This document shows positions 5,477-63,224 of a DNA stretch of 64,000 nucleotides, piece after piece. The notes under the pieces are model-generated. The model ran no database searches and was not told the origin of the DNA. It saw only the letters and a program-made list of their open reading frames with translations. Position 1 is the first letter of the stretch. Every line of letters starts with the position of its first letter. The stretch is from assembly GCA_024699125.1 (NCBI GenBank), contig JAILQE010000007.1:2236-66235 (forward strand), read 5' to 3'. This stretch comes from Candidatus Saccharimonadota bacterium (GTDB lineage Bacteria; Patescibacteriota; Saccharimonadia; Saccharimonadales; Saccharimonadaceae). The position numbers and the translations under genes are program-made.

Positions 5477-5737
5477 ATGGACCAACTCATTTGCCAAAGC
5501 TGCGCAATGCCACTAACTTCAGAAGATATGTTTGCCACCGAAAAAGATGGCAGTGTCAACAAAGATTATTGTAAATGGTGCTACAAAGATGGTGAGTTTA
5601 TTGATCAATGCTCGATGGAAGAATATATTGATAAATGTTCTGAGTTTGGCGAACAAGCCGGTATGACTAATGAGCAAATGCATGAATACTGCAGCAAAGT
5701 ATTCCCAACTTTGAAACGCTGGAAAAACAATGGCTAG
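5477..5737 (+). CDS. Zinc-ribbon domain protein
   Basis: CQSC...CKWC cysteine pairs. SD GAGGA lies 8 nt upstream. Confidence 0.5.
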   Translation: MDQLICQSCAMPLTSEDMFATEKDGSVNKDYCKWCYKDGEFIDQCSMEEYIDKCSEFGEQAGMTNEQMHEYCSKVFPTLKRWKNNG

Positions 5738-6023
5738 CTCAAAAGATTATCGCGACTTTGTTTCGGAACAATTATCATTGGTGCCAGACATTTCTTGTCG
5801 ACCAATGATGGGTGAGTTTTTGTTGTATGCTGGCGGTGTTTTGTTTGGCGGAATTTATGACGATCGTTTGCTGGTGAAAATTGTGCCAGAAAATTCCGGT
5901 TACAATATGTCGGAAGAAATTCCGTACGACGGCGCGAAGCCGATGTATTTGGTGGAAGATGTAGATAACAAAGAGTTACTAGCCGAGATTGTGAGAGCGA
6001 CGGTTGAGGGGTTGAGTAAATAA
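5730..6023 (+). CDS. TfoX/Sxy N-terminal-domain protein
   Basis: MMGEFLLYAGGVLFGGIYDDRLLVK is typical of the TfoX_N domain. It overlaps the previous gene by 8 nt. Confidence 0.55.
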   Translation: MASSKDYRDFVSEQLSLVPDISCRPMMGEFLLYAGGVLFGGIYDDRLLVKIVPENSGYNMSEEIPYDGAKPMYLVEDVDNKELLAEIVRATVEGLSK

Positions 6024-6151
6024 CGGGAGGGGCGGGGAATCCCGGGAGGGGCAGGGAATCCCGCGCTTTGCGCGGGATGCGAACCCTATAGGCCGAACCC
6101 CATCGTCACGAATAAAAAAACAAACCCCGTTGGGGTTTCTTTTTTTATTCG
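6024..6151 (-). repeat. tRNA-Lys trailer: long hairpin abutting the CCA, plus degenerate copies of the tRNA T-arm/acceptor 3' half
   Basis: CGGGAGGGGC (6024-6033) and CCGGGAGGGGC (6042-6052) copy tRNA positions 6160-6170. CGAACCCT recurs at about 6080. The hairpin ACGAATAAAAAAACAAACCCC-gtt-GGGGTTTCTTTTTTTATTCGT ends at the CCA. Confidence 0.7.
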
Positions 6152-6228
6152 TGGTGATCCGGGAGGGGCTCGAACCCTCGACACCAAGCTTAAGAGGCTC
6201 GTGCTCTAACCAACTGAGCTACCGGACC
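6152..6228 (-). tRNA. tRNA-Lys (anticodon CTT)
   Basis: Manual cloverleaf: GGTCCGG acceptor, D arm GCTC-AGTTGGTTA-GAGC, anticodon loop CTCTTAA, T arm GAGGG-TTCGAGC-CCCTC, encoded ACCA. Confidence 0.9.
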
Positions 6229-6358
6229 GAGTGAGGATAAAAACGAAAACTCGTTTTCGTTTTTGATCCGAACGAGGGACGGCTAGCGCGTAGCGCATCC
6301 CGGACCGGATATAAATCCGAATAGCGGCCGGCTAGCACGAAGTGCATCCCGGACCTGC
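6229..6358 (-). repeat. tRNA-Lys leader with two degenerate copies of the tRNA 5' end and a TGGTATAAT promoter
   Basis: In the sense orientation, GGTCCGGGATGC(A/G)CT(T/A)CG(T/C)GCTAGCCG occurs twice, mimicking the GGTCCGGTAGCTC 5' end. GTGGTATAAT lies at about 6349-6358 on the minus strand. Confidence 0.6.
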
Positions 6359-15198: not shown

Positions 15199-15275
15199 CA
15201 AATTCGTAACGACCATAGGTCGTTTTTTTTGTTGCCTCGCAACAAAAAAGAAGCGAAGCTTCTACGAATTTGTGG
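15196..15275 (+). other. Cloverleaf-like four-way junction trailer starting at the tRNA-Met CCA
   Basis: A 13-bp outer stem (15196-15208 / 15263-15275) encloses three abutting triloop hairpins at 15209-15223 (followed by a T-run, so also a terminator), 15225-15249 and 15250-15262. Confidence 0.7.
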
Positions 15276-15373
15276 AAGGACGGCAAGCGATAATGTTTTG
15301 CTTTGCAAAACATTTAGAGCGCCGGCCTACCATGAACAGGAAAAAGGGCGACCCGAAGGCCACCCCAAGATTT

Positions 15374-15745
15374 TTAGGAAGCTGCTTCTCGATAATTTTT
15401 CCCGAGCTTTACTAAGCTTAAAAGATCCCTCAGAAGCTTAGGCTTGTCCATAGGAAGGCCATTCTGGCGCAATTTAGTTTTAAACTTTCTGTTCTCTTTC
15501 GCGTCGTCTCCCTTCATATGGTTCTCGTTTGCCTCGAGGTATTTTTCCACAGACTTCATGTTGTCCGCAACAAAGGCCAACTGCCTCATTCGCTCAATGC
15601 TCGCAGAAAAACATCCATTATCTCTCAGAAGATTTTTGATGCCTCGAAGCTCAGATTTGATTCTTCGTCTTGCTCTGCAGGTTGTTGTGCTGGCAAGATC
15701 CTCCTCCAAGCTCAGCAATTTCTTTACAGCCGTTGTATTCTTCAC
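15374..15745 (-). CDS. Hypothetical protein (no recognisable family)
   Basis: GTG start 8 nt after AAGGAGG. Own TGATATAAT promoter and upstream terminator. Charged, helical sequence. Confidence 0.4.
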   Translation of the reverse strand: MKNTTAVKKLLSLEEDLASTTTCRARRRIKSELRGIKNLLRDNGCFSASIERMRQLAFVADNMKSVEKYLEANENHMKGDDAKENRKFKTKLRQNGLPMDKPKLLRDLLSLVKLGKNYREAAS

Positions 15746-15871
15746 TGAGAATACCTCCTTTTAAAAATCTAATACGCTCGTTTTGCAAACGGCGCATCTT
15801 TTAATTATATCACACTTTTGCTTATTTTTCAAGAGGCAGAAAAAAGCCCTAGCGAGTAGCTAGGGCCGTGG

Positions 15872-16066
15872 TCAGTTGTTCGGGGCGTTGCCATCTTTGG
15901 GAATGTCGTTATGGCAAACTCTTTGTAAAAAGTATCGGAAAGCCTCATCATTTCCGGAATCACGTTTACCTTCGACGTAAACAACCTTCTCGACGGGAAT
16001 TCCGTGTACGCCCTTTAATGTTGCTTTTTTAATCTCCTCGGGACTGGTTTCTGGCGTAATTCTCAT
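15872..16066 (-). CDS. Hypothetical small protein
   Basis: ATG 6 nt after GGAGGT. TGTTATAAT promoter at about 16128-16136 (minus strand). Hairpin terminator downstream. Confidence 0.4.
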   Translation of the reverse strand: MRITPETSPEEIKKATLKGVHGIPVEKVVYVEGKRDSGNDEAFRYFLQRVCHNDIPKDGNAPNN

Positions 16067-16157
16067 ATTGTTACCTCCGTAAAAAAATAATCATCAACTA
16101 CCACGAACTGTAATGTTCGACACGACGTCCATGGTATTATAACACAATTCAAAATAA

Positions 16158-16322
16158 CGGAAGGGACAGGATGGTGATCCAGTCTCCTAAAGCCCCCAAA
16201 TCTAAAGCAGCAGAAACTTCGTTTCTACGCATTCCTCGGGCAACAAAAATAGGAGAGCAAGCTCTCTATTTTTATTGCCTCTCGGCCTGCTGAAAAGCTG
16301 CGCTTTTCTGCTGCTTTAGACT
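16158..16322 (-). repeat. tRNA-Ser trailer: structured ~150-nt insert bounded by a 15-nt direct repeat of the tRNA 3' region
   Basis: CGGAAGGGACAGGAT at 16158-16172 equals 16326-16340. A 12-16 bp outer stem (16201-16216 / 16305-16320) encloses three hairpins. TGGTGATCC at 16172-16180 matches the tRNA-Lys 3' end. Confidence 0.7.
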
Positions 16323-16409
16323 TGGCGGAAGGGACAGGATTCGAACCTGCGAAGCTATTAACTTGCTGGTTTTCAAGACCAGTGCCATCAACCACTCGGC
16401 CACCCTTCC
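16323..16409 (-). tRNA. tRNA-Ser (anticodon TGA)
   Basis: Manual fold: GGAAGGG acceptor, anticodon loop CTTGAAA, long variable arm, T arm CAGG-TTCGAAT-CCTG, GCCA end. TGCTATAAT lies 7 nt upstream. Confidence 0.9.
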
Positions 16410-16510
16410 ATATATTATTATAGCATAAAAAGCGCTTCTGTAAAAGCCATTATTTTAAGGGGTGATCGTCTTGTAAAACAGAGGGAAATCCAGTATAATC
16501 AAAATGCGCT

Positions 16511-16738
16511 TTGAACGCAAAAATTTTCGCAGGAGGTACATTATATGGGGTAGTTAAGCTCATTCAAGAGGAGTCAACCGAGGTTACTCGCGAAGGGAAA
16601 AAGTTTCCGCTTTGGTTCCTTAATGCGACTTGCGACGTTAGCGAGTATGGAGATTTTGAAATGCTCAGAAAAAGCATTCCGCACCGCGTCGAAAACCCCA
16701 ACCCTACATGGGTAAAACACCAATACGGCCTCGGCTAA
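16511..16738 (+). CDS. Hypothetical protein, start uncertain
   Basis: The only in-frame early start is TTG. A good promoter (TTGTAA-17-TATAAT, 16471-16499) and a downstream terminator bracket it, but the strong internal SD is followed only by ATG-GGG-TAG in another frame. Confidence 0.25.
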   Translation: MNAKIFAGGTLYGVVKLIQEESTEVTREGKKFPLWFLNATCDVSEYGDFEMLRKSIPHRVENPNPTWVKHQYGLG

Positions 16739-16744
16739 AAAATT

Positions 16745-16774
16745 GGGCGACCAGTTAAGGTCGCCCGCTTTTTT
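16745..16774. terminator. Bidirectional terminator
   Basis: GGGCGACC-agttaa-GGTCGCCC-GCTTTTTT. Confidence 0.75.
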
Positions 16775-53038: not shown

Positions 53039-53329
53039 ATGAATGTTTTTCTGAACTGCCAGGATAAGCCGATCGGCACTATCAAAAGAATTGCCGAAAG
53101 GTTCGAGCTCGAAATTCGAGGAAACATCATCAAGCGCGACGTCGTGGATGACAATACGTTTACTTCGCATAGGATGAATCTCGTATCATGCGGAGAAGAC
53201 CAGGGACTCACGTTTGGTGAGTACTCGAGAGACGTTGAAAAAGGTGGAAAAAGAATAGGCACATATAAGAATATGTTTCTCGAAGGCCTCCCGATCAAGG
53301 TCATAACGCTCATTAATTACTTTATCTAA
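53039..53329 (+). CDS. Hypothetical protein (96 aa)
   Basis: SD TAGGAGGTGG, then 4 nt, then ATG at 53039. The upstream part of the track ORF overlaps the previous gene. Confidence 0.4.
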   Translation: MNVFLNCQDKPIGTIKRIAERFELEIRGNIIKRDVVDDNTFTSHRMNLVSCGEDQGLTFGEYSRDVEKGGKRIGTYKNMFLEGLPIKVITLINYFI

Positions 53330-53368
53330 ACTTAACCCTCGCCCGGAATCGGGCGGGGGTTAAATTTT

Positions 53369-53608
53369 GGGTGATCGACGGGAGGACGCTCGCTGAAGCT
53401 CGCTATCCGCCTTTGGCGGGCGAACCCTGCGGGAAGGTGATCTCGGCGGTAGTGGCTTCGCCCCTCCCTCCTCGTCACCAAATAAAAAAACAAGCCTTAC
53501 GGCTTCTTTTTTCTTTGGTGATCGACGCGTGCTTCGCACGCTACAGATCACCGGCGTTTCTCAAAAACAAAAATAAGACTTACGGCTTATTTTTGTTTTT
53601 TCTAAACT
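53369..53608 (-). repeat. tRNA-Glu trailer: three same-sense and one inverted copy of the tRNA 3' end, interleaved with long hairpins
   Basis: GGTGATC at 53370, 53437 (GGTGATCTCGGCGG, 14 nt exact) and 53518. The inverted GATCACC lies at 53546. Two hairpins carry a GCCTTACGGC / GACTTACGGC apex. A pseudo T-loop CGAACCC lies at about 53421. Confidence 0.7.
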
Positions 53609-53683
53609 TGGTGATCTCGGCGGGAGTCGAACCCGTATTGTCGGGATGAAAACCCGATGTACTAACCGCTATACTACGAGACC
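53609..53683 (-). tRNA. tRNA-Glu (anticodon TTC)
   Basis: Manual fold: GGTCTCG acceptor, anticodon stem-loop TCGGG-TTTTCAT-CCCGA, T arm CGGG-TTCGACT-CCCG, ACCA end. Confidence 0.85.
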
Positions 53684-62940: not shown

Positions 62941-63148
62941 AGACCAGGTTTAAAAAAACTAACCAAAGTTAGTTTTCTTAAACCTGGTCTGGGTGACAGG
63001 ACTTGCCCGCCGAAGTCGGCCACAGTCCTGCTTTTTTGAAGTTTTTGTGACAACAAAAATGGGGCTTATTTTTGCTGCGCGAAAATAAAAGCCCACTGCG
63101 GATACTCAAAAAAGCCAAAGCAAGCTTTGGTTTTTATCCGTATCCTTG
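62941..63148 (-). repeat. tRNA-Pro(TGG) trailer: ~143-nt hairpin-rich insert bounded by a 21-nt exact copy of the tRNA 3' end, plus a 50-nt hairpin
   Basis: TGGTCTGGGTGACAGGACTTG at 62985-63005 equals 63149-63169. Hairpins lie at 62941-62990, 62997-63030, 63042-63060, 63058-63096 and 63099-63140. Confidence 0.75.
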
Positions 63149-63224
63149 TGGTCTGGGTGACAGGACTTGAACCTGCGACCTCGACTTCCCAAAAGTCGCG
63201 CGCTACCAACTGTGCTACACCCAG
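63149..63224 (-). tRNA. tRNA-Pro (anticodon TGG)
   Basis: Manual fold: CTGGGTG acceptor, anticodon stem-loop CGACT-TTTGGGA-AGTCG, T arm CAGG-TTCAAGT-CCTG, ACCA end. TGATATAAT lies 11 nt upstream. Confidence 0.85.

What the first reader, a model, noticed from the sequence alone, without database searches (positions are those of the whole stretch)
16158..16340. 153-nt structured insert behind tRNA-Ser, bounded by a 15-nt direct repeat and carrying a foreign tRNA 3' end
**Direct repeat.** CGGAAGGGACAGGAT occurs inside the tRNA (16326-16340) and again at 16158-16172.

**Insert.** The DNA between the copies holds a 12-16 bp outer stem (TCTAAAGCAGCAGAAA / TTTCTGCTGCTTTAGA). That stem encloses two triloop hairpins and a ~19-bp hairpin.

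**Foreign fragment.** Next to the distal repeat lies TGGTGATCC (16172-16180). In tRNA sense this reads GGATCACCA, which is the exact 3' end of tRNA-Lys (6152-6160). It also matches the first 8 nt of the tRNA-Glu 3' end.

**Interpretation.** The layout resembles a target duplication or att-like scar left by a small element inserted at the tRNA 3' end. The element appears to have carried a piece of a previous tRNA target.
Basis: partly seen in the sequence, partly recalled or inferred. Interest (0 to 1): 0.7.

Follow-up and report, generated by a model that had tools for sequence, protein, structure and literature searches.

The report
Structured tRNA-Ser trailer ending in tRNA-end copy
Behind a serine tRNA gene of a Saccharibacteria (TM7) bacterium lies a conserved, elaborately folded 150-base trailer that ends in a copy of the tRNA's own 3' end; it is one of a family of such tRNA-end-mimicking modules in these bacteria, it is laid out like the poorly understood RtT repeats of E. 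coli, and it is not the scar of a foreign mobile element.

Summary
CGGAAGGGACAGGAT occurs exactly twice in the window (expected 0.05). One copy is positions 59-73 of tRNA-Ser(UGA). The DNA between the copies folds far better than shuffles (z = -7.4).

The window comes from a Nanosyncoccus-like Saccharibacterium. At the same YebC-linked tRNA-Ser locus, relatives carry modules of four structural types, which I call A-D. Every type ends in an 18- or 21-nt copy of that tRNA's 3' end.

The window's insert is type B: a four-way junction plus a terminal hairpin. It recurs in five lineages, and 16 of its base pairs show compensatory changes. Strains with identical YebC differ in module content, including an 82-nt unit gained or lost between two copies. 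This fits unequal recombination between the copies.

- Of 238 distinct tRNA loci, 35 have such a downstream copy. The control arrangements give 0-2.
- No copy lies more than 300 nt from its tRNA.
- No recombinase was found among ten ORFs tested.
- The "tRNA-Lys fragment" is a variable hairpin loop.

The closest analogue is the E. coli tyrT/RtT repeats. They have the same layout, but neither covariance model matches the other's sequences. Function is unknown. My best guess is a co-transcribed trailer RNA that mimics the tRNA 3' end.

The parts
16417..16444 (-). Promoter-like site of tRNA-Ser (TTTACA, 16 nt, TATAAT, preceded by TG)
   Evidence: matches 11 of 12 consensus positions
16323..16409 (-). 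tRNA-Ser(UGA) with encoded CCA. Its positions 59-76 (ATCCTGTCCCTTCCGCCA, called X here) are the repeated segment.
   Evidence: 60 bits against Rfam tRNA
16305..16328 (-). P1, 5' strand: the tRNA 3' end CCGCCA plus the trailer AGTCTAAAGCAGCAGAAA
   Evidence: inverted repeat I1
16292..16308 (-). P2: triloop hairpin GAAAAGC-GCA-GCTTTTC
   Evidence: helix 3 is 100% paired, with one compensatory pair
16239..16279 (-). P3: 19-bp hairpin GGCAATAAAAATAGAGAGC-TTG-CTCTCCTATTTTTGTTGCC with a G(CUUG)C tip. It also matches an intrinsic-terminator pattern on both strands.
   Evidence: I8; (helix 4: 10 of 18 pairs show compensatory change)
16213..16225 (-). P4: triloop hairpin GAAAC-GAA-GTTTC
   Evidence: (helix 5)
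16193..16216 (-). P1, 3' strand: TTTCTGCTGCTTTAGATT plus TGGGGG, which is complementary to the tRNA's CCGCCA end
16158..16188 (-). P5: terminal hairpin (AGGAGAC-TGGAT-CACC-ATCC-TGTC-CCTT). Its 3' strand is the distal copy X' (16158-16172, tRNA positions 59-73). In this strain X' lacks CCA and reads TTA instead.
   Evidence: (helix 6, 88% paired); for strain variants of X'
15840..16157 (-). Neighbour, not part of the module: a strain-specific cassette. It has a TGTGTTATAAT extended -10 box, a 64-aa ORF (15872-16066) and a terminator (15845-15867). It sits between X' and the conserved promoter region CTGCCTCTTGAAAAATAAGC.
   Evidence: absent from all 200+ fetched loci; no Pfam match

Best explanation
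**What it is.** The 153-nt 'insert' is a lineage-conserved, tRNA-derived trailer module of tRNA-Ser(UGA) in Nanosyncoccus-like Saccharibacteria. I call it type B.

**How it folds.**
- As RNA it forms a four-way junction. The outer stem P1 starts at the tRNA's own CCGCCA end.
- Two GNA-triloop hairpins (P2 and P4) flank a long hairpin P3 with a CUUG tip.
- A terminal hairpin P5 follows. Its 3' strand is a copy (X') of tRNA positions 59-76.

**How it relates to other modules.** It is one of at least four module types (A-D) found behind Saccharibacteria tRNAs. All end in an 18- or 21-nt copy of the local tRNA's 3' end, paired to an upstream arm tailored to that tRNA. In type A this makes an acceptor/T-arm minihelix with a GCCA tail.

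**How it probably works (inferred).**
- The modules are transcribed with the tRNA. In most species a genuine terminator follows the copy's CCA.
- They are therefore trailer RNAs with a tRNA-like 3' end, as RttR is in E. coli.
- I infer that the mimicry lets tRNA-end enzymes (RNase P, RNase Z, CCA-adding enzyme, or exonucleases that stop at CCA) define or process the RNA.
- Alternatively, the arm that is complementary to the CCA end can pair with either the tRNA end or its copy.

**DNA-level behaviour.** The direct repeats X and X' make the locus a small tandem array. It gains and loses units by unequal homologous recombination. This produces the strain polymorphism.

**State of the window's copy.** It is a partly decayed member: X' has lost CCA, and a strain-specific gene cassette abuts it.

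**Shown versus inferred.**
- Shown: the repeat, the structure, its conservation and covariation, the synteny, the polymorphism, and the bias towards same-strand downstream copies.
- Inferred: co-transcription, processing and any cellular role.
For: **Repeat and fold.**

**Same locus in relatives.** L001, L002, L003, L006 and L007 all carry a downstream copy of the tRNA-Ser 3' end.

**The copy tracks its own tRNA.** In 23 metagenome loci the copy carries the same C/T state as its tRNA: CCCTTCC in 13 and CCTTTCC in 10.

**Type A (14 distinct sequences).**
- 92% of cells are paired, against 46-58% when the partner columns are slid.
- 15 pairs show compensatory change.
- The arm position opposite the C/T site is G in 6 of 6 C-type sequences and A or T in 6 of 6 T-type sequences.

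**Type B.**
- 94% of cells are paired, against 54% or less when slid.
- 16 pairs show compensatory change.
- Independent minimum-energy folds of four lineages give the same architecture. A fifth lineage is L167.

**Terminators.** They follow the copy's CCA in at least 14 loci (sequences).

**Bias in arrangement.**
- Own 3' end copied downstream on the same strand: 35 of 238 distinct tRNA loci at 12 nt or more.
- The five control arrangements (3' end upstream, 5' end upstream or downstream, and two reverse-complement arrangements): 0-2.

**Synteny.** Most module-bearing loci with enough flank, including all five type B lineages, encode YebC at 81-100% identity to the window's.

**Polymorphism.** Strains with identical YebC show X-B; X-A-X-B; X-B-X'; and a hybrid of the left half of B with the right half of A.

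**E. coli analogue.** tyrV is followed by 19-nt copies of positions 58-76 every 178 nt. The annotated RttR RNA ends exactly at the first copy's CCA.
Against: **No expression data.** Transcription through P3 is not shown. P3 is followed by a T-run and matches an intrinsic-terminator pattern on both strands. If it terminates efficiently, P1, P4 and P5 would rarely form in RNA.

**Weak constraint on the copy in type B.** In the window and several sister strains X' is decayed (CCG|TTA, GCCT, ATCCTGTTTTCCGCC). The tRNA-like 3' end is therefore not under strong constraint in type B.

**Limits of the covariation evidence.**
- Hairpins of any origin, including plain terminators, also evolve by compensatory change.
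- The covariation controls do not correct for phylogeny.
- Only five independent type B lineages are available.

**Alternative to selection.** Identity between X' and the tRNA could be kept by gene conversion.

**Turnover.** Module types are interspersed among species. This requires either ancestral arrays with differential loss or horizontal exchange.
Confidence: 0.6

Rival explanations
1. Mobile-element scar. A small non-autonomous element, mobilised in trans by a tyrosine integrase or transposase that targets tRNA T-loops, inserted at the 3' end of tRNA-Ser. It duplicated or replaced the 18-21-nt target, so X and X' are att-like or target-site duplications.
For: - Direct repeats bound the modules and begin at fixed T-loop positions (56 or 59), as expected for T-loop crossover sites.
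- An 82-nt unit (module A plus X) is present or absent among strains with identical YebC.
- The internal scaffolds of types C and D are shared between different tRNAs, while their ends match the local tRNA:
  - the tRNA-Lys trailer in the window resembles the tRNA-Ser trailer in L166;
  - the tRNA-Arg trailer in L004 resembles the tRNA-Ser trailer in L206.
- L004 has a tandem array of 2.5 units.
- The region downstream of X' is hypervariable.
Against: - None of the ten ORFs of 146-383 aa tested in the window matched a recombinase family. This check is not exhaustive.
- No X copy lies more than 300 nt from its tRNA in 1.07 Mb, so no full-length islands use these sites.
- The 18-mer occurs in viral contigs only inside unrelated phage tRNA-Ser genes. 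No attP was found.
- Type B at more than 90 bits occurs only at the YebC-linked tRNA-Ser locus.
- Stems have diverged with compensatory changes at an orthologous site. This indicates long vertical residence.
- The arms are complementary to the local tRNA copy. A freshly inserted foreign element would not be.
Confidence: 0.15
2. Neutral remnant. The ancestral tRNA gene, or its 3' part plus the terminator, was tandemly duplicated. The extra copy is decaying. X' stays identical only because the duplication is recent or because of gene conversion from the adjacent tRNA. The structure is just terminator hairpins and has no function of its own.
For: - The arms resemble the tRNA's own 5' acceptor strand (GGAAGG) and the 5' strand of its T stem (GCAGG).
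- L010 and the L003 tRNA-Arg(CCG) show repeat units that continue past the CCA into the trailer, as a plain tandem duplication would.
- X' is decayed in the window, L084, L085, L003, L007 and L209.
- P3 and H1 look like bidirectional terminators in some lineages.
Against: - Only the 3' end survives, and only downstream: 35 loci against 0-2 for the control arrangements.
- Random decay of whole-gene duplicates should leave 5' and internal pieces as well.
- In type A the copy is nearly invariant while the neighbouring stem H1 has changed on both strands at 13 of 15 pairs.
- The arm co-varies with the C/T change in the acceptor stem. Gene conversion from the tRNA cannot easily do this for a 7-nt arm.
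- In most type A sequences H1 has no T-run, and the real terminator lies after the copy.
- P1, P2 and P4 of type B are conserved even though they are not needed for termination.
Confidence: 0.2
3. Chance repeat next to an ordinary terminator.
For: Short repeats and hairpins are common in AT-rich intergenic DNA. The 9-mer match alone is weak.
Against: - The 15-mer has an expectation of 0.05.
- The same arrangement recurs at this locus in many species and at other tRNAs.
Confidence: 0.01

Closest known systems
E. coli tyrT/tyrV RtT repeats (RttR small RNA; Rfam RF00391)
   Same: - A tRNA gene with encoded CCA is followed, on the same strand, by units that each end in an exact copy of the tRNA's 3' end starting in the T-loop. 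In E. coli this is 19 nt, positions 58-76. Here it is 18 or 21 nt.
- An upstream arm pairs with the copy from position 59 onward: GGGGAAGGAT with ATCCTTCCCC in E. coli, and GGAT or GCAGGAT with ATCC(TGT) here.
- Both units contain GCGAAGC/GCGCAGC-type triloop hairpins.
- Both occur as tandem arrays (3.1 units in E. coli, 2.5 in L004).
- The annotated RttR RNA ends exactly at the copy's CCA.
- The function of RtT is also unresolved. It has been reported to be involved in transcript processing and possibly in the stringent response (bioRxiv 10.1101/2024.07.17.603846, citing Bosl and Kersten 1991; PMC3318445).
   Different: - No detectable sequence or structure homology. The Rfam RtT model scores 133-138 bits on E. 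coli but gives no hit at E <= 1 on ten loci that include types A-D.
- No RtT hit in the window region.
- My type B model scores only 8.5 bits on the E. coli locus.
- Different phylum, different tRNAs (Ser, Arg, Lys, Pro, Glu, Met), four architectures, and shorter units (26-170 nt against 178).
- No tpr-like ORF.
Direct repeats of tRNA 3' ends left by integrases (attL/attR of prophages and genomic islands)
   Same: Same-orientation duplicate of the tRNA 3' end starting in the T-loop. There is variable DNA beyond it, and content differs between strains.
   Different: - The spacing is 26-170 nt, never kilobases.
- No integrase was found among the ORFs tested.
- No attP-bearing phage was found.
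- The intervening DNA is a conserved structured element, not cargo.
tRNA-like 3' elements processed by tRNA enzymes (for example the MALAT1 mascRNA, or viral tRNA-like structures)
   Same: An acceptor/T-arm mimic ending in (N)CCA is placed at the 3' end of another RNA, where RNase P, RNase Z or the CCA-adding enzyme could act. The type A minihelix has a 7-bp acceptor-like stem that copies the cognate tRNA on both strands.
   Different: - This comparison rests on my own knowledge and was not tested here.
- Those elements are eukaryotic or viral.
- Here the mimic follows its own cognate tRNA.
- The window's type B copy lacks the CCA.

Membership tests
RtT RNA (Rfam RF00391) | Match to the Rfam covariance model at or above the gathering score (45 bits) | tested here: not met
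   - no RtT hit at E <= 10 in window 15800-16560.
- four E. coli units score 133-138 bits, but there is no hit at E <= 1 in ten loci that include types A-D.
RtT RNA (Rfam RF00391) | The unit lies downstream of a tRNA gene and ends in a copy of that tRNA's 3' end including CCA | tested here: met
   - Met for the family as a whole.
- In the window's own copy the match stops at the discriminator base, and CCA is replaced by TTA.
RtT RNA (Rfam RF00391) | Released from the tRNA primary transcript as a stable RNA | not testable with these tools
   No transcriptome data are available. Terminators placed after the copy in at least 14 loci are indirect support.
Integrase-mediated insertion at a tRNA gene (attL/attR) | Direct repeat of the tRNA 3' segment flanking the inserted DNA | tested here: met
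Integrase-mediated insertion at a tRNA gene (attL/attR) | A tyrosine or serine recombinase gene within or next to the insert, in this or a related genome | tested here: not met
   - The insert is 153 nt and has no ORF.
- Ten ORFs of 146-383 aa in the window gave no recombinase family.
- No X copy lies beyond 300 nt in 1.07 Mb.
- The search of the window's ORFs was not exhaustive.
Integrase-mediated insertion at a tRNA gene (attL/attR) | An empty site, or the same element at other sites or in phage or plasmid DNA | tested here: inconclusive
   - Unit-number polymorphism exists, but it is explained by recombination between the repeats.
- No copy of type B elsewhere.
- No attP in viral contigs.
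MITE-like element (terminal inverted repeats plus target-site duplication) | Terminal inverted repeats directly flanked by a short target duplication, with multiple dispersed copies | tested here: not met
   - The inverted repeat (P1) is separated from X' by 20 nt on one side and overlaps the tRNA on the other.
- The window holds a single copy.
Canonical tRNA or tRNA pseudogene | Detected by ARAGORN or by the Rfam tRNA model | tested here: not met
   only the tRNA-Ser itself is detected. The module is not.

The most novel reading that the evidence does not exclude
Saccharibacteria carry an undescribed family of functional RNAs encoded in tRNA trailers, and in some cases in tRNA leaders. There are four architectures, including a four-way-junction RNA and a cognate acceptor/T-arm 'mini-tRNA'. 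Each mimics, and can pair with, the 3' end of its own tRNA. They act in tRNA 3'-end maturation or control, or as decoys for enzymes or toxins that recognise the CCA end. They would be functional counterparts of the long-unexplained E. coli RtT repeats.
Probability: 0.4. Interest if true: 0.75.

Novelty: new variant of a known kind. Interest (0 to 1): 0.58.

Why it matters
**An old open question.** Repeats that end in a copy of the tRNA's 3' end have been known behind E. coli tyrT for decades, as I recall the literature. The RttR RNA was described in 1991. Their origin and role are still unclear.

**What this adds.**
- The same design principle appears in a distant, genome-reduced phylum, behind at least six tRNA species.
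- It comes in four structural variants and shows clear compensatory evolution.
- This suggests the arrangement is selected rather than accidental.
- It also provides a rich comparative data set for inferring what is constrained: tRNA positions 59-76, an arm complementary to them, and often a stretch complementary to the CCA end.

**Why it is surprising.** In organisms with about 1-Mb genomes and a reduced set of RNases, keeping such elements is unexpected.

**Practical consequences.**
- If the elements are processed by tRNA enzymes, they bear on how CCA-encoding tRNAs with hairpin trailers are matured in candidate-phyla-radiation (CPR) bacteria.
- The repeats explain strain-level length polymorphism at tRNA loci.
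- They could mislead tools that predict genomic islands or att sites.

Tried and rejected
**Foreign tRNA-Lys fragment: rejected.** The 9-mer is GGAT, a loop, then ATCC, and the loop differs in every relative.

**Phage attP: not found.** The 18-mer occurs in viral contigs only inside two unrelated phage tRNA-Ser genes.

**Integrase in the window: not found.** Ten ORFs of 146-383 aa gave NusA, glycosyltransferases, PGK, transporters or nothing.

**Long-range repeats marking islands: none.** None in 1.07 Mb.

**Known RNA family: none.**
- No match at gathering score.
- Only weak hits to sX4 (22-32 bits against a cutoff of 70). These overlap the tRNA itself.

**Homology to RtT: none by either model**.

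**The 64-aa ORF next to X'.**
- No Pfam family.
- No exact record in the protein collection.
- No homologue in any fetched locus.

**Literature.**
- Searches for Saccharibacteria/CPR tRNA-linked repeats or minihelices found nothing relevant.
- Bosl and Kersten 1991 is not held in the library.

**Ideas considered without support.**
- A reverse-transcriptase origin of the 18-nt copies, by analogy with retroviral primer-binding sites and a stop at m1A58. It does not explain why the copies lie next to the cognate gene on the same strand.
- Dedicated aminoacyl-minihelix carriers for cell-wall synthesis. This is unlikely as a general explanation, because ArgRS, LysRS and GluRS need the anticodon.
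Full report
**1. The observation**

tRNA-Ser(UGA) lies at 16323-16409 on the minus strand (60 bits against Rfam tRNA).

*The repeat*
- The 15-mer CGGAAGGGACAGGAT occurs at 16326-16340, inside the tRNA, and at 16158-16172.
- It occurs nowhere else in the 64-kb window, even with two mismatches allowed. The expectation is 0.05, and no shuffle out of 100 reached two matches.
- In tRNA sense it reads ATCCTGTCCCTTCCG. [quoted passage not shown]
- The tRNA continues with CCA. The distal copy continues with TTA.

*The fold*
- The DNA between the copies is strongly structured: -80 kcal/mol against -49 +/- 4 for shuffles, z = -7.4.
It is 24 nt at 92% complementarity (16193-16216 with 16305-16328), and it includes the tRNA's CCGCCA.

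*The 9-mer*
- TGGTGATCC is present, but statistically weak: 2 copies against 0.18 expected.

**2. Organism and locus**

Flanking genes are RuvB, a bacterial PH-domain protein, YebC and ComEC. The best YebC matches are Candidatus Nanosyncoccus and other Saccharibacteria. The window is ordinary chromosome. It carries 13 dispersed tRNA genes that encode CCA.

**3. The repeat is a property of the lineage**

At the same YebC-linked locus, five reference genomes also carry a same-strand copy of the tRNA-Ser 3' end 42-100 nt downstream (L001, L002, L003, L006, L007). In L002 the tRNA has CCTTTCC instead of CCCTTCC, and so does its copy.

*Metagenome scan for this tRNA (120 loci)*
- At least 23 of 107 usable loci have a copy.
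- Every copy has the C/T state of its own tRNA: 13 of one state and 10 of the other.
- Most module-bearing loci with enough flank encode YebC at 81-100% identity to the window's, so they are orthologous.

*Other tRNAs*
- Own-3'-end copies also follow tRNA-Glu, tRNA-Pro(UGG) and tRNA-Lys(CUU) in the window.
- They follow Arg, Lys and Met tRNAs in relatives.

*Statistics over 238 distinct tRNA loci*

| Arrangement | Loci with a match of 12 nt or more |
|---|---|
| Own 3' end, downstream, same strand | 35 |
| Five control arrangements (3' end upstream, 5' end up- or downstream, two reverse-complement) | 0-2 |

- The copies start at position 56 (21 nt) or position 59 (18 nt).
- None lies more than 300 nt from its tRNA in 1.07 Mb of sequence.

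**4. Anatomy**

Four architectures recur. The labels are mine.

*Type A (14 distinct sequences, alignment A1)*
- tRNA-CCA is followed by a perfect 17-20-bp hairpin, H1, with an invariant AGCUUGCU tip.
- Then comes U-GAAGGAAGG, then GGAT, a 4-5-nt loop, and ATCC-TGT-CC(C/U)UUCC-GCCA.
- The result is an acceptor/T-arm minihelix of the cognate tRNA.
- H1 has 13 of 15 pairs with compensatory change.
- The whole structure is 92% paired, against 46-58% when the partner columns are slid.
- The arm base opposite the C/T site is G in all six C-type sequences, and A or T in all six T-type sequences.

*Type B (the window's insert)*
- P1 (outer stem). Its base pairs the tRNA's CC-GCCA with UGG(A/G)GG.
- P2: GAAARGC-GNA-GCYUUUC.
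- P3: a long hairpin with a G(CUUG)C tip, extended by two short helices.
- P4: GAAAC-GAA-GUUUC.
- P5: a terminal hairpin, AAGGAGAC-GGAU-NNNN-AUCC-U-GUC-CCUU, whose 3' strand is the copy.
- Five lineages have type B: the window group, L186, L192, L209 and L167. Their YebC is 85-88% identical to the window's. Their outer stems differ entirely in sequence but remain complementary.
- Their independent minimum-energy folds are superimposable.
- On alignment A2, 94% of cells pair against 54% or less when slid, and 16 pairs show compensatory change.

*Types C and D*
- Both have other internal scaffolds. Type D reads like a T-arm with a hairpin inserted in the T-loop.
- These scaffolds are shared between different tRNAs, while the arm and the copy match the local tRNA:
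  - Type C: the tRNA-Lys trailer in the window resembles the tRNA-Ser trailer in L166.
  - Type D: the tRNA-Arg trailer in L004 resembles the tRNA-Ser trailer in L206.

*Terminators*
- In at least 14 loci a clear intrinsic terminator follows the CCA of the copy.
- H1 of type A usually has no T-run (sequences).
- This places the module inside the tRNA transcription unit.

**5. Strain polymorphism**

Nine contigs encode a YebC identical to the window's. Behind the tRNA they show the following arrangements:

| Loci | Arrangement |
|---|---|
| L084 | X-B, then a decayed copy (ATCCTGTTTTCAGCC) |
| L085, L086, L088 | X-A-X-B |
| L087 | X-B-X' (17 of 18 match) |
| window | X-B-X' (15 of 18 match) |
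| L083, L089 | Hybrid: left half of B joined to right half of A, no distal copy |

- X-A-X-B differs from X-B by exactly 82 nt, which is module A (64 nt) plus X (18 nt).
- L150 is 97.5% identical upstream. It has X-A-X, a terminator, then a type C module and X'.
- L004 has 2.5 tandem units.
- These patterns are what unequal homologous recombination between the direct repeats, and between the shared hairpin cores, would produce.
- Just beyond X' the window carries a 318-nt cassette (promoter, 64-aa ORF, terminator). It is absent from every other fetched locus.
- After that cassette the promoter region shared with the other strains resumes: CTGCCTCTTGAAAAATAAGC.

**6. The 'foreign tRNA fragment'**

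GGATCACCA is the 5' half of the P5 tip: GGAT, loop CACC, A(TCC). GGAT and ATCC are conserved. The loop is CACT, TTTT, CCCT or AAAT in relatives. The match to the tRNA-Lys/Glu ends is therefore specific to this strain's loop and is best read as chance.

**7. Mobile-element tests**

- The window has no second copy of the insert.
- The type B covariance model R1 scores 93-116 bits only at the tRNA-Ser locus of other strains and species.
- R1 gives weaker, architecture-level hits (about 39-40 bits) in the window's tRNA-Glu trailer and its tRNA-Lys leader.
- The 18-mer is found in viral contigs only within unrelated phage tRNA-Ser genes.
- No recombinase family was found among ten ORFs of 146-383 aa.
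- A site-specific origin of the very first duplication cannot be excluded. The fixed T-loop boundaries are suggestive. The present element, however, does not look like a recent insertion.

**8. Closest known system**

*Shared layout*
- I fetched the E. coli K-12 tyrT/tyrV locus.
- tyrV ends ...GGTTCGAATCCTTCCCCCACCACCA. The last 19 nt (positions 58-76) recur three times downstream at a 178-nt period.
- The annotated small RNA RttR runs from 8 nt after tyrV to exactly the CCA of the first copy.
- Inside the unit, GGGGAAGGAT is complementary to the copy from position 59. GCGAAGC and GCGCAGC triloop hairpins are present, as in types B-D.
- The layout is thus the same.

*No membership*
- The Rfam RtT model scores 133-138 bits on the E. 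coli units, but gives nothing at E <= 1 on the Saccharibacteria modules.
- R1 scores 8.5 bits on the E. coli locus.
- I therefore say the element is laid out like RtT, but I do not file it as a member of that family.

*What is known about RtT*
- Its function is unresolved.
- It is described as processed from the tyrT transcript and possibly affecting the stringent response (bioRxiv 10.1101/2024.07.17.603846; PMC3318445, both citing Bosl and Kersten 1991, which I could not read).

**9. Mechanism**

*Shown*
- A conserved structure.
- A copy of tRNA positions 59-76 that tracks its tRNA.
- An arm that pairs with the copy.
- A recurrent stretch complementary to the tRNA's terminal bases, including CCA:
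  - UGGRGG in type B;
  - UG..GGAAGG in type A;
  - GGUGAUC behind tRNA-Glu;
  - UGGUCU behind tRNA-Pro.
- Terminators placed after the copy.

*Inferred*
- The module is transcribed with the tRNA.
- Its tRNA-like end is recognised by tRNA-end enzymes, giving a defined trailer RNA as for RttR.
- The complementary stretch can pair either with the tRNA end or with its copy.

*Not established*
- I cannot say whether the RNA acts in maturation, as a regulator, or as a decoy.

*State of the window's copy*
- It is a degenerate member: no CCA, a weak 5' acceptor strand, and P3 followed by a T-run that matches a terminator pattern.

**10. Verdict**

It is not, on this evidence, a foreign element's scar, and there is no captured tRNA-Lys piece.

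The element is a new variant of a known but poorly understood kind, tRNA-trailer units that end in a copy of the tRNA's 3' end. It is absent from Rfam 15, and the literature I could search does not mention it.

Noticed in passing
window 53313-53608 (minus strand, trailer of tRNA-Glu 53609-53683): The roughly 300-nt trailer holds three hairpins or copies built on the tRNA's last bases (GGTGATC...GATCACC(A)) and a 14-nt exact copy, CCGCCGAGATCACC, at +159. The type B covariance model hits 53446-53548 at 39 bits. The hit covers a triloop hairpin GCGTGC-GAA-GCACGC, a long A/T hairpin and GGC-GAA-GCC.
   Followed up: partly
window 62985-63148 (minus strand, trailer of tRNA-Pro(UGG) 63149-63224): A 21-nt exact copy of tRNA positions 56-76 (CAAGTCCTGTCACCCAGACCA) lies 143 nt downstream. 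It is preceded by the arm GCAGGACT, which pairs with it, and a small hairpin. It is followed by a terminator whose stem pairs with the copy's AGACCA end.
   Followed up: partly
window 6020-6151 (minus strand, trailer of tRNA-Lys(CUU) 6152-6228): The trailer has a 19-bp hairpin directly after CCA. Next comes a type C-like module sharing ATCCCGCGC-NNN-GCGCGGGAT with a tRNA-Ser trailer of another species (L166). It ends in two partial copies of the tRNA 3' end (GCCCCTCCCGG, then GCCCCTCCCG).
   Followed up: partly
window 6229-6355 (minus strand, leader of tRNA-Lys): Between the promoter and the tRNA lie two pseudo-5' ends: GGTCCGG plus a triloop hairpin, TAGCC, and a degenerate 3'-end-like stretch. 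These are minihelix-like units placed upstream of the tRNA. A similar pseudo-5' end (GGTACCGTAG) precedes tRNA-Met in L118 and L145.
   Followed up: partly
window 15200-16157, and the equivalent stretch in L083-L091, L150 and L001: The stretch between tRNA-Ser and the oppositely oriented tRNA-Met is hypervariable among strains with identical YebC. Different small ORFs are found there: 64, 80, 123, 129 and 205 aa, and a DUF6512 protein. Several sit behind the same promoter region (AATAAGCAAAAGTGTGATATAAT). The 64-aa ORF cassette is unique to this strain.
   Followed up: partly
window 16410-16772: About 360 nt, holding a 75-aa ORF with no Pfam match, separate YebC from tRNA-Ser in this strain group. 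In L001 the two are only 58 nt apart. The segment is 97.5% identical in L150 and L164, but only about 70% identical in other strains with identical YebC.
   Followed up: no
window 16158-16165 and 6020-6030; L097 near 5505-5540: The distal tRNA-end copies behind tRNA-Ser and tRNA-Lys in the window both break off at ...CCG|TTATTT. L097 has ...CTCCG|TTATTTTGATT...TGTGTTATAAT at the end of a type B remnant. This could be a shared promoter/UP-like element or a preferred junction. I did not resolve which.
   Followed up: no
window 32406-32482: ARAGORN reports a tRNA with anticodon TAT (Ile). This anticodon is uncommon in bacteria.
   Followed up: no
window 16278-16419; L099 6655-6800; L192; L119: Weak, sub-threshold Rfam hits to the Xanthomonas small RNA sX4 (22-32 bits; gathering score 70). 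They span tRNA-Ser plus the first trailer hairpin, and probably reflect the tRNA part only.
   Followed up: no
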